Assembly (NCBI GenBank): GCA_045532865.1
Contig: JAZSGT010000028.1
Span: forward strand, 18,507 to 82,506
DNA from: Alphaproteobacteria bacterium
GTDB lineage: Bacteria; Pseudomonadota; Alphaproteobacteria; CAAHEQ01; UBA3637
DNA length: 64,000 nt
Direction of reading: 5' to 3'
Of the stretch, positions 1,161-63,923 are shown one piece after another. The notes below the pieces were generated by a model. That model made no database searches. It saw only the letters and a program-made list of their open reading frames with translations, and had not been told where the DNA came from. The position numbers were made by a program, and so were the translations under genes. Position 1 is the stretch's first letter, and each line of letters begins with the position of its first letter.

Positions 1161-1539
1161 AATAAAAAATAGTTAGTTGGTTTTCTTATAGTAAAAAAGG
1201 CGGAATTTTTCGCTATTAAGGCTTGTATTAAAGAGTTGTTTTGCTTGCAACCATTTGCTTGGAATCAAAATTCCAGCTCATGGGTTATAGCCTGAACCGT
1301 CACGACCTCTTTGTTGGTCATAAGCTCAATGCTACACCCCCTCTTTTTTAAACACAATAAAAAAAGCACCCAAATGGATGCTCTTTCATTGGCCAAAGGG
1401 GGTGGGATTTATTCGCATAAATGCGCTCACCCTTCGGGCCGCCTGCCGGCGTTGCCTTCATTTCGGCCGAACCAGTGGTTCAACCCCGCCCCACGTATAA
1501 ATCAAAAAGGCCAACCTTTCGGCTGACCTTTTTCCTTTA

Positions 1540-1617
1540 TGGTTGCGGGGGTGGGATTTGAACCTCACGACCTCCAGGTTATGAGCCTGGCAAGCTACCG
1601 GACTGCTCTACCCCGCG
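1540..1617 (-). tRNA. tRNA-Met (anticodon CAT), initiator-like with a C1/A72 mismatch and encoded CCA
   Basis: The reverse complement reads CGCGGGGTAGAGCAGTCCGGTAGCTTGCCAGGCTCATAACCTGGAGGTCGTGAGGTTCAAATCCCACCCCCGCAACCA. The anticodon loop is CTCATAA. The 3' acceptor strand CCCCGCA gives C1 opposite A72. The T-loop is TTCAAAT. One extra nucleotide (A) sits in the 5' T-stem strand. Confidence 0.85.
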
Positions 1618-41108: not shown

Positions 41109-41226
41109 GGTTGTTCGTTTTGTTTTGTGTTGTGTTGGGCATGCTGTCTCGCTAAAGCTCGACATTACGTTGTTGCACTCCGTCCGAGAACATGCTTCGC
41201 CTGTTCTTCTCATGCCACCCCAAATA

Positions 41227-41254
41227 AAAAAAGACGGTATAAAACCGTCTTTTT
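41227..41254. terminator. bidirectional terminator (ends the minus-strand rnpB/tRNA-Pro unit and the plus-strand upstream gene)
   Basis: aagacggt ataaa accgtctt flanked by A-run and T-run. Confidence 0.8.
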
Positions 41255-41255
41255 A

Positions 41256-41332
41256 TGGTCGGGGCGACATGATTCGAACATGCGACACCTTGGTCCCAAA
41301 CCAAGTACTCTACCAGGCTGAGCTACGCCCCG
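41256..41332 (-). tRNA. tRNA-Pro (anticodon TGG), CCA encoded
   Basis: The reverse complement reads CGGGGCGTAGCTCAGCCTGGTAGAGTACTTGGTTTGGGACCAAGGTGTCGCATGTTCGAATCATGTCGCCCCGACCA. The anticodon loop is TTTGGGA. Confidence 0.9.
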
Positions 41333-41402: not shown

Positions 41403-41767
41403 AATGTCAGACAATCTATAAGCCGGGTTTTGTAATCGATAATCATTCGTCTGGGATAAACATTACTGTTTACCTCTAGCGACCTACCTCTTGAGAGCAG
41501 ATCAGAAACGCTCTTTTTACAAAGAAAATCTTTGGCTCTCTTCACTTGGTCTTGCTTCCGATAGGGCTTGCCGTGCCATTTTAATCGCTTAAAATGCGGT
41601 GAGCTCTTACCTCGCCGTTTCACCCTTACCAATTAAAAAATTGGCGGTTTGTTTTCTATGGCGCTATCCCGTGGGTCACCCCAGCTGGACGTTATCCAGT
41701 ATCGTGTTTCCGTGAAGCCCGGACTTTCCTCCAAAGTTGCCTTCAGCGATTATCCGATCGTCTGACG
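41403..41767 (-). ncRNA. rnpB: RNase P RNA (bacterial type A)
   Basis: The minus strand contains GGAGGAAAGTCCGGGCTTCACGGAAACACGATACTGGATAACGTCCAGCTGGGGTGACCCACGGGATAGCGCC...GGTAAGGGTGAAACGGCGAGGTAAGAGCTCACCGC...ACAAAACCCGGCTTATAGATTGTCTGAC. Both universally conserved P4 strands (AGGAAAGTCCGGGC and ACAAAACCCGGCTTA) are present. The 5' and 3' ends are complementary (P1). Confidence 0.85.
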
Positions 41768-61033: not shown

Positions 61034-61630
61034 TTATTCAAATACTTTGATTCGTTTTTGAATTTCTAAAAAGGTTTTTTCATCAGCTGGTTTTTCGACA
61101 CTGCCAAAATTCATTTGAGCAAGCAATTTCCAAGAAGCAGGGGGAGAAAATGTTTTTTGAACATAATCGTCGACGAGGGGATTATAATGTTGTAAATTAG
61201 CCCCTAATCCCAGTTCTGTTAAAGCAAGCCAGACGCAATATTGAAGCATTCCTGCAGATTGCATACTCCAAATAGGGAAGTTATCGGCATAGAGAGAAAA
61301 TTTTTTTTGCAACATTTGAATGGTATGTTGTTCTTCAAAAAAAAGAATAGAGCCGATTCCTTTTGAAAAAGAAGTTAATTTTTCTTTTGTTTTTTCAAAT
61401 TGCTCAGGAGGGGTTATTTTTTTGAGCGTATTTTTGGTTGAAATCCAAAATTGTTTGTATGGTTCGTTAAAAAGAACAATAACACGACCAGTTTGGGAAT
61501 TAAAAGCTGTAGGGGTTTGTTTTAAACAGTCACAAATGGTTTGAACAATCTCTTGAGGGGAGATGTCACTCTTTTTTCCTAAATGATAGATTGATCTTCT
61601 TGATTTGATGAGAGAGATAAAATCTGACAT
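61034..61630 (-). CDS. nitroreductase-family protein
   Basis: MSDFISLIKSRRSIYHL nitroreductase N-terminus; AGGAGG RBS; the upstream in-frame extension is hydrophobic junk and was rejected. Confidence 0.7.
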   Translation of the reverse strand: MSDFISLIKSRRSIYHLGKKSDISPQEIVQTICDCLKQTPTAFNSQTGRVIVLFNEPYKQFWISTKNTLKKITPPEQFEKTKEKLTSFSKGIGSILFFEEQHTIQMLQKKFSLYADNFPIWSMQSAGMLQYCVWLALTELGLGANLQHYNPLVDDYVQKTFSPPASWKLLAQMNFGSVEKPADEKTFLEIQKRIKVFE

Positions 61631-61815
61631 ATTGCCTCCTTTTGGTTGTTTATAAAAAAGATAGAGCATAACGTTTTGAAAATCAATATAGATTTTATAA
61701 CTAAAAATAATGTAAAAACATAATAAATTCAAAGGGAAATAAAAAAAACATAAAAACAATAAAAAAAGTATTGCATTTTTTAAAATAAAAGTGTATAAAT
61801 ACAACATCTTACGAT

Positions 61816-61891
61816 GACCCCATCGTCTAGAGGCCTAGGACATCGCCCTTTCACGGCGGTAACCGGGGTTCGAATCCCCGTGGGGTCGCCA
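61816..61891 (+). tRNA. tRNA-Glu (anticodon TTC), CCA encoded
   Basis: GACCCCATCGTCTAGAGGCCTAGGACATCGCCCTTTCACGGCGGTAACCGGGGTTCGAATCCCCGTGGGGTCGCCA. Confidence 0.9.
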
Positions 61892-62181
61892 ATAAAAACC
61901 ACCGAAGGGTGGTTTTTTTTATGGCGAAATTCAAACGGGGGCAAGAACCCCATAGGTGTTCAGTCGCGAAGCGTAAGCGAAGTGGACGCCAGAGGTGGTC
62001 CGAAAGGACGAGCGTTAAGCTCGCAATCCTCAGTGGGGTCGTGGGTAAAAACCACCGAAGGGTGGTTTTTTTTATGGCGAATTTCAAACGGGGGCAAGAA
62101 CACCATAGGGGTTCGGTCACGAAGCGTAAGCGAAGTGGACGCCGAAAGGCGGTCCGAAGGGACGAGCGTTAAGCTCGCAAT
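61876..62181. repeat. tandem direct repeat (2 copies of about 153 bp, roughly 90% identical): tRNA-Glu 3'-end remnant, terminator hairpin, and a ~105-nt GC-rich element
   Basis: Copy 1 spans 61876-62027 and copy 2 spans 62028-62181. The second terminator copy is at 62047-62075. Each copy's element includes a GTCC-GNRA-GGAC hairpin. Confidence 0.8.
61893..61921 (+). terminator. rho-independent terminator after tRNA-Glu
   Basis: aaaaaccaccgaagggtggtttttttt. Confidence 0.8.
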
Positions 62182-62204
62182 TTACATATTCTGATTATAA
62201 AATA

Positions 62205-62237
62205 AAGAAACTGCCTGAAAAGGCAGTTTCTTTATTG
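62205..62237. terminator. bidirectional terminator (ends ettA on the minus strand)
   Basis: aaagaaactgcc tgaaaa ggcagtttcttt. Confidence 0.75.
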
Positions 62238-62243
62238 GGTAGA

Positions 62244-63923
62244 TTATCTGGAGATTGGTTTGTATTTGATGCGATGTGGTTGATCTGCATCTGCCCCTAA
62301 TCTGCGTTTTTTGTCAGCTTCATATTCTTCATAGTTACCTTCAAAATAAACAACTTGACTATCGCCTTCAAAAGCAAGAATATGAGTTGCTAATCTGTCT
62401 AGGAACCATCTGTCGTGTGATGTGATAACAGCGCAGCCAGGGAAGTTCATTAATGCTTCTTCCAATGCGCGCAATGTATCAACATCTAAGTCGTTTGTAG
62501 GTTCGTCAAGCAAAAGAACGTTTGCTCCTTGTTTAAGCATTTTTGCCATGTGCACGCGATTGCGTTCACCACCAGAAAGTTGGCCAACTTTCTTTTGTTG
62601 ATCTGGACCTTTAAAGTTGAATTGTGAAACATATCCACGAGAGTTCACTTCACGTTTGCCAAGTGTTAAAATATCTTTTCCTTCGGAAATTTCTTGCCAG
62701 ACAGTTTTGTTATCATCAAGAGCATCTCTTGATTGATCGACATATCCAAGAGAAACAGTTTCACCCACTCTGAATGAGCCACTATCTGGTTGTTCTTGAC
62801 CTGTGATAATTTTCATCAATGTGGTTTTCCCAGCGCCATTTGGACCAATGATACCGACGATACCCCCAGCAGGTAATTTGAATGAAAGATTTTCAAATAA
62901 TAATTTTTCACCATAAGCTTTTGTGAGATTTTCAGCTTCTAAAACAACTTGCCCCAATCTTGGACCAGCAGGAATGATAATCTGAGCGACTTCTGGTGCT
63001 TTTTCTCTTTCTTGTGATTTTTTAAGCAATTCTTCATAAGCTGTGATACGTGCTTTTGATTTTGCTTGACGGGCTTTTGGAGATTGACGCACCCATTCAA
63101 GTTCTTCTTTTAATGTTTTTTGACGGTTGTTGTCGGCATTTTGCTCTTGTTCCATTCGTTTTTGTTTTTGTTCAAGCCAACTTGTGTAGTTTCCTTCAAA
63201 AGGAATGCCTTCACCACGGTCCATTTCCAAAATCCAACCAGTTACATTGTCAAGGAAGTATCTGTCGTGTGTTACCATAACAACAGTACCTGTGTAATTT
63301 TTTAAGAATACTTGTAACCAAGCAACAGATTCTGCATCCAAGTGGTTTGTAGGTTCGTCAAGTAAAAGCATGTCTGGTTTTGATAATAATAAGCGACATA
63401 AGGCAACACGGCGTTTTTCACCACCAGAAAGTTTTGTTACATCTGCATCGGCAGGTGGGCAACGAAGAGCATCCATGGCAATTTCAATTGTGCGTTCTAA
63501 TTCCCACCCATTACAAGCATCAATTTTTTCTTGCAATTCGGCTTGTTCAGCTAAAAGAGCGTCCATATCAGCATCTGGATCAGCAAATTTCATATTCACT
63601 TCTTCAAATCGTGCAAGTAAATCTCTAATTTCTCCAACACCATCCATGATGTTGCCCATGACGTCTTTTGAAGGGTCGAGTTGAGGTTCTTGAGGCAGAT
63701 ATCCAACTTTAACACCATCTGCTGCAAAAGCTTCGCCTGTGAAATCTTGATCTAGACCTGCCATAATTTTAATAAGTGTTGATTTACCAGCACCATTTGG
63801 ACCGATAACACCAATTTTTGCCCCTGGGAAGAATGAAAGCCAAATATGTTTTAACACCTCTTTTCCACCAGGGAATGTTTTGCACAAATCTTTCATGACA
63901 TAAATGTATTGATATGAAGCCAT
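62244..63923 (-). CDS. ettA: energy-dependent translational throttle protein EttA (ABC-F ATPase)
   Basis: Two ABC cassettes (GPNGAGKST twice, LSGGE twice); the EttA N-terminal region; 559 aa. Confidence 0.9.

What the first reader, a model, noticed from the sequence alone, without database searches (positions are those of the whole stretch)
61876..62181. Tandem duplication of a tRNA-Glu 3'-end remnant, terminator and ~105-nt GC-rich element; candidate small RNA or integration footprint
Directly after tRNA-Glu and its terminator, a ~153-bp unit occurs twice in tandem. Each copy has a degenerate copy of the tRNA 3' end (ccccgtggggtcgcca versus cctcagtggggtcgtggg), the same terminator hairpin, and a GC-rich element. 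That element contains a GTCC-GAAA-GGAC GNRA hairpin and a CGAGC-GTTAA-GCTCG hairpin. The sequence around the GNRA loop (GCCAGAGGUGGUCCGAAAGGACGAGCG) loosely resembles the apical part of SRP RNA domain IV (ACCAGGUCAGGUCCGGAAGGAAGCAGCC), but the rest does not fit a 4.5S fold. Duplicated tRNA 3' ends are the hallmark of integrase-mediated insertion at tRNA genes. So this could be a scar of a past integration or excision, or a tRNA-linked sRNA that has been duplicated.
Basis: seen in the sequence. Interest (0 to 1): 0.55.

Follow-up and report, generated by a model that had tools for sequence, protein, structure and literature searches.

The report
Tandem tRNA-linked repeats after tRNA-Glu
The duplicated GC-rich unit after tRNA-Glu is a pair of "tRNA-linked repeats", the same kind of element as the RtT repeats known since 1978 behind the E. 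coli tyrT tRNA genes, here found in a distant uncultured alphaproteobacterium; their function is still unknown.

Summary
Two units (61873-62024 and 62025-78) are 91% identical and lie directly after tRNA-Glu. Each holds a copy of the tRNA 3' end, a terminator and a ~105-nt GC-rich element.

It is not SRP-like, and an integrase scar is not supported. It is a tRNA-linked repeat (TLR, RtT-RNA type).
- The same architecture follows all three tRNA genes in the window (Glu, fMet, Pro).
- The architecture is: terminator; a diverged antisense copy of the cognate tRNA's 3' half; a 3-nt loop; the sense T-stem strand plus UUCG; a branched core of hairpins; a copy of the tRNA 3' end; a second terminator.
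- Rfam's RtT model hits the fMet copy below threshold (28.5 bits, against a cut-off of 45).
- A covariance model built only from the Glu copies finds all four E. coli tyrT RtT repeats.
- The shared fold shows compensatory changes.

Among relatives, one lacks the element, one carries a truncated copy, and the others carry one copy, three of them with a perfect 19/19 tRNA-end copy. The second copy therefore appears specific to this lineage, as in E. coli arrays of one to five.

[quoted passage not shown] Function is unknown. This is a new, distant member of a known kind.

The parts
61816..61891 (+). tRNA-Glu(UUC). Its last 19 nt (61873-61891, AATCCCCGTGGGGTCGCCA, called 'B0') is the segment repeated downstream.
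   Evidence: ARAGORN; Rfam tRNA; sequence.
61892..61920 (+). First terminator (A-tract, stem CCACC/GGTGG, loop GAAG, T8). With its A-tract it could work in both directions.
   Evidence: Sequence; inverted repeat I3; conserved with compensatory stem changes in relatives (CCGCC/GGCGG in L015 and L019).
61921..62024 (+). TLR copy 1. H* (61921-61951) is the diverged antisense of the tRNA-Glu 3' half. Then come the loop ATA (61952-61954), A (61955-61962, GGTGTTCA, the T-stem 5' strand plus TTC) and the core hairpins P2-P5 (61963-62024).
   Evidence: RNAduplex of H* against the tRNA-Glu 3' half gives -36.3 kcal/mol, against a shuffle mean of -16.0, with 0/300 shuffles as good. Model R1 scores 121 bits. 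Consensus fold.
62025..62045 (+). B1: degenerate copy of the tRNA-Glu 3' end (AATCCTCAGTGGGGTCGTGGG). It matches 15 of 19 bases, has one inserted base, and CCA is lost.
   Evidence: The orthologous copy matches 19/19 in L004, L019 and L011, and 16/19 in L002.
62046..62073 (+). Second terminator. From 62047 on it is identical to the first (61893-61920).
   Evidence: (I8).
62074..62181 (+). TLR copy 2: H* (62074-62104), loop (62105-62107), A (62108-62115, GGGGTTCG), core (62116-62178) and AAT (62179-62181). No tRNA-end copy follows.
   Evidence: Model R1 scores 96 bits; H* duplex energy -29.2 kcal/mol, 0/300 shuffles as good.
62201..62236 (.). Perfect 16-bp hairpin between TLR copy 2 and the convergent ettA gene (62244-63923, - strand). 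It would end both transcripts.
   Evidence: Inverted repeat I2; ORF list.
1388..1539 (-). Same kind of appendage after tRNA-fMet (1617..1540). It has a terminator (1523..1510), a TLR (1506..1388) with H*, P1 and a core homologous to the Glu core, and a 13-nt copy of the tRNA-fMet 3' part (1410..1398). A second terminator follows at 1387..1360.
   Evidence: Sequence; Rfam RtT 28.5 bits, E 0.0006-0.0014, full length; R1 14.1 bits, the best non-self hit in the window; cognate duplex -28.4 kcal/mol, 0/300 shuffles as good; terminators.
1239..1303 (-). Remnant of an older, different element distal to the fMet TLR. It is homologous to the only element at tRNA-fMet in a related genome (L047).
   Evidence: Local alignment score 40, 0/1000 shuffles as good; alignment.
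41133..41255 (-). Same kind of appendage after tRNA-Pro (41332..41256): a terminator, H* (about 41221..41199), A (GCATGTTC), a short core and a decayed tRNA-Pro end. It is more degenerate, and neither model detects it.
   Evidence: Sequence; cognate duplex -31.5 kcal/mol against a shuffle mean of -13.2, 0/300 shuffles as good, and non-cognate duplexes weak; fold.

Best explanation
The 306-bp region is a tandem pair of tRNA-linked repeats (TLRs), the RtT-RNA type of element first seen behind the E. coli tyrT genes. It is appended to tRNA-Glu in an AT-rich uncultured alphaproteobacterium.

Anatomy (shown). After the tRNA and its terminator, each element has, in order:
1. a diverged antisense copy of the last ~27 nt of the cognate tRNA (H*);
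2. a 3-nt loop;
3. the sense T-stem 5' strand plus UUCG (A);
4. a GC-rich core of three to four short hairpins, placed where T-loop positions 57/58 would be;
5. a sense copy of the tRNA's last 19 nt (B);
6. another terminator.

On the tRNA strand this folds into a long irregular hairpin. H* pairs with A and B, and the core branches out of that stem.

Mode of action (inferred by analogy with E. coli rtT and the rrnB TLR RrB, not shown here). Most transcripts from the tRNA promoter stop at the first terminator. Read-through transcripts carry the element. The tRNA-like 3' end serves as a processing or stabilising signal, and the next terminator ends the transcript. The result would be a stable ~125-nt trailer RNA. 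What that RNA does is unknown, as it is in E. coli.

Origin of the duplication (inferred). The second copy arose in this lineage by unequal recombination or slippage between the ~46-nt 'tRNA end plus terminator' segments. That gives the copy-number variation typical of TLR arrays.
For: - **Link to the known family.** Rfam RtT (RF00391) aligns full length to the sister element after tRNA-fMet (28.5 bits, E 0.0006-0.0014). Model R1 was built only from the tRNA-Glu elements. It finds all four E. coli K-12 tyrT RtT copies (15.7-20.2 bits, E 0.001-0.04), at the places where Rfam RtT scores 133-138 bits.
- **Shared fold.** On the joint alignment A7, 90.5% of cells are paired, against 77.5 +/- 1.3 in shuffles and 36-47% with slid partners. 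17 of 37 pairs change on both sides. The covariation score is 0.39 against 0.18, reached by 0/500 shuffles. Helices P2 and P3 are 100% paired and vary.
- **Antisense leader.** Each leader pairs end to end with the 3' half of its own tRNA and not with the others (-26 to -36 kcal/mol; 0/300 shuffles as good for 8 of the 9 leaders, 1/300 for the truncated L015 copy). The same holds for E. coli tyrT (-31.5 against -10.8 kcal/mol).
- **Strand.** In all 8 elements the tRNA strand folds better than its complement, with 28 G.U pairs against 16.
- **Family hallmark.** The 3'-end copy matches 19/19 in L004, L019 and L011.
- **Copy number.** It is 0 in L008, 1 in L002, L001, L004 and L019, and 2 in the window. 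The two window copies share derived states that the orthologues lack: a GTAA loop, an ATA loop and GGGGGCAAG.
- **Placement.** The element sits between two terminators, as described for the E. coli rrn TLRs, which are made by read-through of T1 (PMC8144298).
Against: - The Glu copies themselves get no RtT hit in Rfam, even at E<=10 or E<=0.5 in relatives. The fMet hit is below the curated cut-off of 45 bits.
- The R1 hits on E. coli are weak in bits, and R1's E-values are rough.
- Alignment A7 is fitted to the model. Helices 1-3 differ between tRNAs by construction, which inflates the covariation counts.
- No promoter lies between the first terminator and the element, and that terminator has a T8 run, so expression may be low. 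No expression data exist for this organism.
- In the window the tRNA-end copy is degenerate (15/19) after copy 1 and absent after copy 2. The copies here may therefore be decaying rather than working.
- One relative has lost the element (L008) and another has a truncated copy (L015), so it is dispensable.
Confidence: 0.72

Rival explanations
1. The elements are footprints of site-specific integration. A small integrative element, or the remnant of a larger one, recombined with the tRNA 3' end. It brought a replacement 3' end and a terminator, and displaced the old 3' end downstream. The two copies are tandem integrations.
For: - A direct repeat of the tRNA 3' end flanks the insert. It starts in the T loop and is perfect (19/19) in L004, L019 and L011. 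In L019 it extends to 37 nt.
- Presence and absence vary among relatives (L008 against L004).
- At tRNA-fMet the window has a new proximal element and a decayed distal one homologous to the sole element of L047. This looks like successive insertions next to the tRNA.
- The terminators differ between alleles, as if each was brought in by its element.
Against: - No integrase, transposase or reverse transcriptase is found among the 40 ORFs of at least 140 aa scanned against Pfam or among the neighbours in L011, L004 and L002.
- There is no match in phages, plasmids or viral contigs.
- The 'element' is only ~150-190 bp in every genome seen.
- It contains an antisense copy of the target and a fold with G.U-tolerant, compensatory changes. 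Att sites do not need these.
- The homologous E. coli TLRs are not known to be integrase products.
- L008 keeps the first terminator and the first 3 nt of the element, so it looks like an imprecise deletion rather than an empty att site.
Confidence: 0.12
2. The duplication is a plain DNA-level event with no consequence. One TLR-like relic was duplicated by slippage, and both copies are now drifting, non-functional DNA.
For: - The closest relative on the nitroreductase side (L002) has one copy.
- The window's tRNA-end copies are degenerate or missing.
- P1 carries a mismatch in both copies (C.U in copy 1, A.G in copy 2).
- The element is lost or truncated in other relatives.
Against: - GC stays at 0.51-0.57 in a 0.335-GC genome.
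- The Glu element is 81-85% identical to L004, where the neighbouring gene is 74% identical at DNA level.
- The stem differences between the two copies in P2 and P3 are wobble-compatible (G.U against A-U and G-C).
- The fold is shared with E. coli.
Confidence: 0.12
3. The repeats encode a small, very basic peptide like E. coli Tpr (the protamine-like protein read from the tyrT repeats).
For: An 87-aa ORF runs through both copies (61909-62172). From the ATG at 61921 it reads MAKFKRGQEPHRCSVAKRKRSGRQRW..., which is arginine- and lysine-rich like Tpr (MRSFDQGSTRAPARERCRRQRPEGRSAQR).
Against: The frame has a stop at codon 8 in L002. It is in a different frame with unrelated residues in L004. It ends after 15 codons in L015. 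There is no clear ribosome-binding site. The basic character follows from the CGAAG/GAAAGG-rich hairpins.
Confidence: 0.03

Closest known systems
E. coli tyrT-tyrV distal repeats / rtT (RttR) RNA, Rfam RF00391 (Egan & Landy 1978; Bosl & Kersten 1991, as cited in PMC8144298)
   Same: - It is a tandem array directly behind a tRNA gene on the same strand. E. coli has copies 178 bp apart; the window has copies 153 bp apart.
- Each copy ends with the last 18-19 nt of the tRNA.
- The leader is complementary to the tRNA 3' half.
- The order of parts is the same: H*, P1, core hairpins, B.
- Core motifs are shared (CGAAGCG, CGxC-loop-GxCG, CCCGAAGGG/UCCGAAAGG, GAGCG).
- The models detect each other's members, and the fold covaries.
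- A basic ORF overlaps the repeats.
   Different: - The tRNAs differ (Glu, fMet, Pro against Tyr), and so does the phylum-level lineage (Alphaproteobacteria against Enterobacterales).
- Here a terminator separates the tRNA from the element. At tyrT a 59-nt spacer without a terminator does.
- Here H* reaches the complement of CCA.
- The units are shorter.
- The Rfam cut-off is not reached.
- In the window the tRNA-end copies are degenerate.
E. coli rrnA/B/D TLRs RrA, RrB, RrF (PMC8144298)
   Same: The element lies between two terminators at the end of a stable-RNA operon. [quoted passage not shown] Its 3' end repeats the last 18 nt of the upstream gene, which the authors propose as a processing signal. 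This is the best precedent for how the element could be expressed.
   Different: The upstream gene is 5S rRNA, not a tRNA. RrA/B/F bind Hfq and CsrA in vitro through GGA motifs, and nothing of that kind was tested here. Sequence relatedness to the present elements was not tested.
attL/attR duplications made by tRNA-targeting integrases (genomic islands, prophages)
   Same: A direct repeat of the tRNA 3' part starts in the T loop. Presence and absence vary among relatives, and the older copy lies distal to the tRNA.
   Different: There is no recombinase gene. The insert is 150-190 bp rather than kilobases. It contains an antisense copy of the target and a conserved fold. The same design follows every tRNA in the window.

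Membership tests
tRNA-linked repeats (TLR) / RtT RNA | Lies immediately downstream of a tRNA or rRNA gene, on the same strand, in the same operon region. | tested here: met
   tRNA-Glu is at 61816-61891 and the elements at 61921-62181. The same holds at tRNA-fMet and tRNA-Pro.
tRNA-linked repeats (TLR) / RtT RNA | The last 18-19 nt of the element are identical to the 3' end of the upstream gene (hallmark stated in PMC8144298). | tested here: inconclusive
   In the window, copy 1 matches 15/19 with CCA lost and copy 2 has no such end. The fMet element keeps 13 nt. Orthologous Glu elements match 19/19 in L004, L019 and L011, and 16/19 in L002. The feature belongs to the family here but is decayed in this genome.
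tRNA-linked repeats (TLR) / RtT RNA | One to five copies per locus, in tandem. | tested here: met
   The window has two copies with period 153-154. Relatives have one or none.
tRNA-linked repeats (TLR) / RtT RNA | Scores at or above the Rfam RF00391 gathering score (45 bits). | tested here: not met
   There is no RtT hit on 61700-62300 at E<=10 and none on Glu elements of relatives at E<=0.5. The fMet element reaches 28.5 bits. So it is not a member by Rfam's curated criterion.
tRNA-linked repeats (TLR) / RtT RNA | Sequence-and-structure similarity to bona fide RtT copies (reciprocal search). | tested here: met
   R1, built from the Glu elements only, finds the four E. coli tyrT copies and no other place at E<=0.2 in those searches (E 0.001-0.04). 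Their positions coincide with Rfam RtT hits of 133-138 bits.
tRNA-linked repeats (TLR) / RtT RNA | Shared secondary structure: a closing stem between the leader and the tRNA-end copy, plus internal hairpins. | tested here: met
   The alignment is fitted to the model, so the counts lean towards the structure.
tRNA-linked repeats (TLR) / RtT RNA | Transcribed with the upstream stable RNA and processed to a discrete RNA. | not testable with these tools
   There are no expression data for this uncultured organism.
Integrase-made att duplication at a tRNA gene | A recombinase gene and island cargo lie between the repeats or next to them. | tested here: not met
   Pfam scans of 40 window ORFs of at least 140 aa and of neighbours in L002, L004 and L011 found none. 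The insert is 150-190 bp.
Bacterial SRP (4.5S) RNA | Match to the SRP covariance models, including the domain IV fold. | tested here: not met
   No SRP family appears among the 35 matches at E<=10 on 61700-62300 or in the whole-window scan.

The most novel reading that the evidence does not exclude
TLRs are not passive trailers. They are a widespread class of non-coding cassettes that are copied to the 3' ends of different stable-RNA genes by a target-templated process.

In this reading, each new copy acquires an antisense and a sense copy of its target's 3' half around a transferable core. It arrives with its own terminator and pushes older copies distally.

The hints are:
- the tRNA-fMet element has a Glu-type core but fMet-specific flanks;
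- at tRNA-fMet a new proximal element replaces an L047-type element, which now decays distally;
- alleles at the same tRNA carry different terminators and cores (window against L047; window type against L011);
- the same design occurs in E. coli and in an alphaproteobacterium.
Probability: 0.2. Interest if true: 0.75.

Novelty: new member of a known kind. Interest (0 to 1): 0.42.

Why it matters
TLRs were first described in 1978. Twenty-two are annotated in E. coli K-12, and they still have no known function (PMC8144298). As far as the papers I could read and Rfam's model show, they are treated as an enterobacterial feature.

Finding the same design behind all three tRNA genes of a 64-kb window of a distant AT-rich alphaproteobacterium matters for three reasons:
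- the design is much more widespread, or much older, than assumed;
- there are now divergent sequences, so the fold can be tested by covariation;
- one feature becomes explicit that may guide experiments: each element carries an antisense copy of its own tRNA's 3' half.

In practice it also shows that Rfam RF00391 is too narrow to find such relatives, and that these regions should not be annotated as integration scars or small basic proteins.

Tried and rejected
- **SRP / 4.5S likeness.** No Rfam support.
- **Core derived from the 5' two-thirds of the tRNA** (D arm or anticodon arm with replaced loops). Local alignments of 8 cores against three tRNAs in both orientations were no better than shuffles.
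- **A decayed second copy in L001.** It was suggested by a MAFFT alignment but is not significant (p=0.26), so it was dropped.
- **Small basic protein.** The frame is not conserved.
- **Mobile-element genes nearby.** None were found.
- **Phage, plasmid or virus origin.** No match. A viral contig with the tRNA-Glu 3' end (L046) has no tRNA call and was not studied further.
- **Metagenome scan with GCAATCCCCGTGGGGTCG.** Of 29 hits, one (L019) is a relative. The rest lie in unrelated, mostly GC-rich sequence, about the number I estimated beforehand for chance.
- **Genome scan with a 22-mer of the core.** It found one related MAG only.
- **Tandem Repeats Finder.** It missed the repeat.
- **Promoter scan.** It found nothing between the terminator and the element. 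One - strand site (62221..62194) is no more than chance gives.
- **Other readings.** I also considered retron ncRNA, group II intron fragments, ribozymes, bridge or omega RNAs, integron attC and CTX-type folded attP. None has a partner gene here or any Rfam support. The folded-hairpin analogy remains only as part of the novel case.

Full report
**1. What is in the sequence**

tRNA-Glu(UUC) occupies 61816-61891 on the + strand. It is followed by a short terminator at 61892-61920: an A-tract, the hairpin CCACC-GAAG-GGTGG and eight T. Two near-identical units then follow.

The repeat finder reports 61880-61990 / 62033-62143 (92% over 111 nt) and 61993-62027 / 62147-62181 (94% over 35 nt), with period 153-154. 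Aligned as whole units, 61873-62024 and 62025-62178 share 139 of 152 positions (91.4%) with two single-base indels.

The core strings occur nowhere else in the window and in none of 100 shuffles. GC is 0.51-0.57 across the repeat, against 0.335 for the window.
- the middle copy of the tRNA end (62025-62045) matches 15 of 19 bases and has lost CCA;
- nothing resembling the tRNA end follows the second element.

The flanking genes are a nitroreductase (- strand, ending upstream of the tRNA promoter) and a convergent ettA (62244-63923, - strand). ettA has its own perfect hairpin at 62201-62236.

**2.

Rfam at curated thresholds finds only three tRNAs and RNase P RNA in the window. At E<=10 nothing meaningful covers the elements, and no SRP family appears. 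The SRP likeness is therefore rejected.

The elements fold better than shuffles, but not decisively on their own (z -2.3 and -1.9 on the + strand).

**3. Relatives**

A 22-mer of the core found one related genome, an alphaproteobacterial MAG (L001). Homologues of the nitroreductase gave further syntenic loci. The picture at tRNA-Glu is as follows.

| Locus | Neighbour protein identity | State at tRNA-Glu |
|---|---|---|
| L002 | 93% | one element, tRNA-end copy 16/19 |
| L001 | 81% | one element, truncated end copy |
| L004 and L019 | 69% | one diverged element, perfect 19/19 end copy including CCA |
| L011-L013 | 60% | longer element with a different core, again a perfect 19/19 copy and a good second terminator |
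| L015 | 65% | truncated element |
| L008 | 70% | no element |

L008 keeps the terminator and the first three bases of the element, so it looks like an imprecise loss.

The second copy in the window is thus lineage-specific. The two window copies share derived states that all orthologues lack: a GTAA rather than GAAA loop, an ATA loop and GGGGGCAAG.

The region is also a recombination boundary between lineages. L002 is closer to the window on the nitroreductase side (91% against 82%). L001 is closer on the ettA side (96% against 90%) and in the element (90-92% against 84-88%).

**4. The other tRNAs of the window**

The only GC-rich islands outside genes are the tRNAs, RNase P RNA and stretches just downstream of the tRNAs. 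Reading them shows the same arrangement in both other cases.
- tRNA-fMet (1617..1540, - strand) is followed by a terminator, a GC-rich element and a 13-nt copy of its own 3' part, then a second terminator.
- tRNA-Pro (41332..41256, - strand) is followed by a terminator and a more degenerate element.

**5. Architecture**

Each element begins with a diverged reverse complement of the last ~27 nt of its own tRNA. I call this H*. For Glu it reads TGGCGAaattCaAaCGGGGgcAaGAACCCC, against the exact complement TGGCGACCCCACGGGGATTCGAACCCC. The remaining parts follow in this order:
- a 3-nt loop;
- the sense T-stem 5' strand with TTCG;
- the core hairpins;
- AAT plus the sense T-stem 3' strand, acceptor strand and CCA.

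RNAduplex shows each leader pairing end to end with its cognate tRNA 3' half (-26 to -36 kcal/mol, shuffle means -11 to -17). No shuffle of 300 did as well for 8 of the 9 leaders, and one did for the truncated L015 copy. Pairing with non-cognate halves is weak.

RNAfold of the full elements gives the same global shape in L004, L002, L001, L011, the fMet element and the Pro element. A closing stem forms between the leader and the tRNA-end copy, and a multiloop carries P1 and three or four hairpins (z -3.3 to -4.5 where the end copy is intact).

In all eight elements the tRNA strand folds better than its complement, by 3-14 kcal/mol, and holds more G.U pairs (28 against 16). This points to a fold on that strand, as RNA or as single-stranded DNA.

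The core shows no similarity to the 5' parts of the tRNAs.

**6. Identification**

An Rfam scan of the fMet region at relaxed threshold gave a full-length match to RF00391, RtT RNA (28.5 bits, below the cut-off of 45; E 0.0006-0.0014). The printed RtT consensus has the same order of parts:
- GGGGAAGGAU, the complement of the tRNA-Tyr end;
- GAACCUU..AAGGUUCGA;
- a core with CGAAGCG, CGxCGC-loop-GCGxCG, GCCCGAAGGGC and GAG;
- then AUCCUUCCCCCACCACCA.

RtT is one of the E. coli "tRNA-linked repeats". According to PMC8144298:
- they were first described by Egan and Landy in 1978;
- 22 are known at ten loci, with one to five per locus;
- all carry 18-19 bp identical to the 3' end of the upstream tRNA or rRNA gene;
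- they have no known function, and the early claim for rtT was retracted;

I fetched the E. coli K-12 tyrT locus (L049). Rfam RtT scores its four copies at 133-138 bits. My model R1, built only from the alphaproteobacterial Glu elements, finds the same four copies (15.7-20.2 bits, E 0.001-0.04). Within the window its best non-self hit is the fMet element (14.1 bits).

On the joint alignment A7:
- 90.5% of cells are paired, against 77.5% in shuffles and 36-47% with slid partners;
- 17 of 37 pairs change on both sides;
- P2 and P3 are fully paired while varying.

Two caveats apply. The alignment is fitted to the model. Helices made of tRNA-derived sequence differ between tRNAs by construction.

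The E. coli leader is likewise complementary to the tRNA-Tyr 3' half (-31.5 against -10.8 kcal/mol).

The Glu elements themselves get no RtT hit in Rfam. By Rfam's curated criterion they are not members. By architecture, reciprocal search and shared fold they are distant relatives.

**7. How it probably works**

What is shown is the anatomy, the cognate-specific complementarity, the strand bias of the fold, the variation in copy number, and the link to E. coli TLRs.

What is inferred, by analogy with RrB and rtT, is the mode of expression:
- the elements are transcribed when RNA polymerase reads through the first terminator;
- the tRNA-like 3' end serves processing or stability;
- the next terminator ends the RNA.

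No promoter lies between the terminator and the element.

All three loci in the window face a convergent gene. A role as an extra barrier against read-through is therefore conceivable but untested.

The duplication is best explained by unequal recombination between the ~46-nt 'tRNA end plus terminator' segments.

**8. What speaks for a more dynamic history**

At tRNA-fMet a related genome (L047, neighbour protein 82% identical) carries an element of the same design. Its terminators and core are different, and its end copy has drifted from the tRNA while staying complementary to its own leader (GGAGGU:ACCUCC).

The window keeps a decayed remnant of that element at 1303..1239, distal to its present one (p<=0.001). 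The core of the present one resembles the Glu core. Elements are therefore replaced over time, and the newest lies next to the tRNA.

This is what an insertion process would give. However, no recombinase, transposase or reverse transcriptase is found among the 40 ORFs of at least 140 aa scanned against Pfam or among neighbours of relatives' elements. There is also no match in phage, plasmid or viral collections. I keep this as the novel case, not the main reading.

**9. Verdict**

The finding is a real tandem pair of tRNA-linked repeats of the RtT type. It is a new, distant member of a known but functionally unexplained kind.

The integrase-scar reading is not supported, and the SRP likeness is wrong. 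The 'duplicated tRNA-linked sRNA' reading is essentially right, although expression is unproven.

Interest is moderate. The class is old and known. Its presence in a far-removed lineage, at every tRNA seen, with an explicit antisense-sense design, gives new comparative leverage on a question open since 1978.

Noticed in passing
window 1388-1539 (- strand): tRNA-fMet carries the same kind of appendage between two terminators. It is the only element here that Rfam's RtT model detects (28.5 bits).
   Followed up: yes
window 41133-41255 (- strand): tRNA-Pro lies directly after RNase P RNA (41765..41403). It is followed by a terminator and a degenerate element whose leader is complementary to the tRNA-Pro 3' half. 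Neither covariance model detects it.
   Followed up: partly
window 1239-1303 (- strand): This is a remnant of an older element, homologous to the one at tRNA-fMet in L047. It lies distal to the current element, so it is evidence that elements are replaced over time.
   Followed up: partly
window 61034-63923 compared with L001 and L002: Similarity is discordant. L002 is closer on the nitroreductase side (91% against 82%). L001 is closer on the ettA side (96% against 90%). A recombination boundary between lineages therefore falls in or near the tRNA-Glu intergenic region.
   Followed up: partly
window 61909-62172 (+ strand): An 87-aa very basic ORF runs through both repeats and recalls the E. 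coli 'protamine-like' tpr ORF inside RtT. The frame is broken in L002 and different in L004, so it is probably a by-product of the purine-rich hairpins.
   Followed up: yes
L001 891-966 (- strand): The tRNA-Glu of this MAG differs from all the others at two positions: T loop TTCGAA to TCCGAA, and acceptor GGGGTC to GGGGAC, which breaks a pair. This could be sequencing or assembly error, or a damaged gene.
   Followed up: no
window 1540-1617 and L047 3886-3963: The initiator tRNA is 78 nt long, with an extra base in the T-stem 5' strand (GTGAGG against CCCAC). It is identical in two genomes, so it is probably real.
   Followed up: no
L003, L010, L014, L016 (contig ends): Several short-read contigs of relatives end inside tRNA-Glu, in its terminator or about 30 nt into the element. 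This may reflect repeated sequence or strain variation at that point.
   Followed up: no
L046 5099-5117 (IMG/VR contig, GC 0.54): A viral contig holds the exact last 19 nt of this tRNA-Glu, preceded by a T-arm-like sequence, but ARAGORN calls no full tRNA. It may be an attachment site of an unrelated phage.
   Followed up: no
L020, L035, L042 (metagenome contigs, GC about 0.4): Three contigs share an identical stretch ending ...CTGGGTTCGCAATCCCCGTGGGGTCG, a tRNA-like 3' fragment in a non-tRNA context. It is unrelated to the core studied here.
   Followed up: no
window 62194-62221 (- strand): A promoter-like site (TTTTCA-16-TATAAT, 10/12) points into the second element from the ettA side. One such site is what chance gives in this region.
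   Followed up: no
PMC11623569 (E. coli): [quoted passage not shown] The paper says its approach does not need strand information. Each RtT copy carries an antisense copy of the tRNA-Tyr 3' half, so that signal might come from the repeats themselves. This is my speculation only.
   Followed up: no
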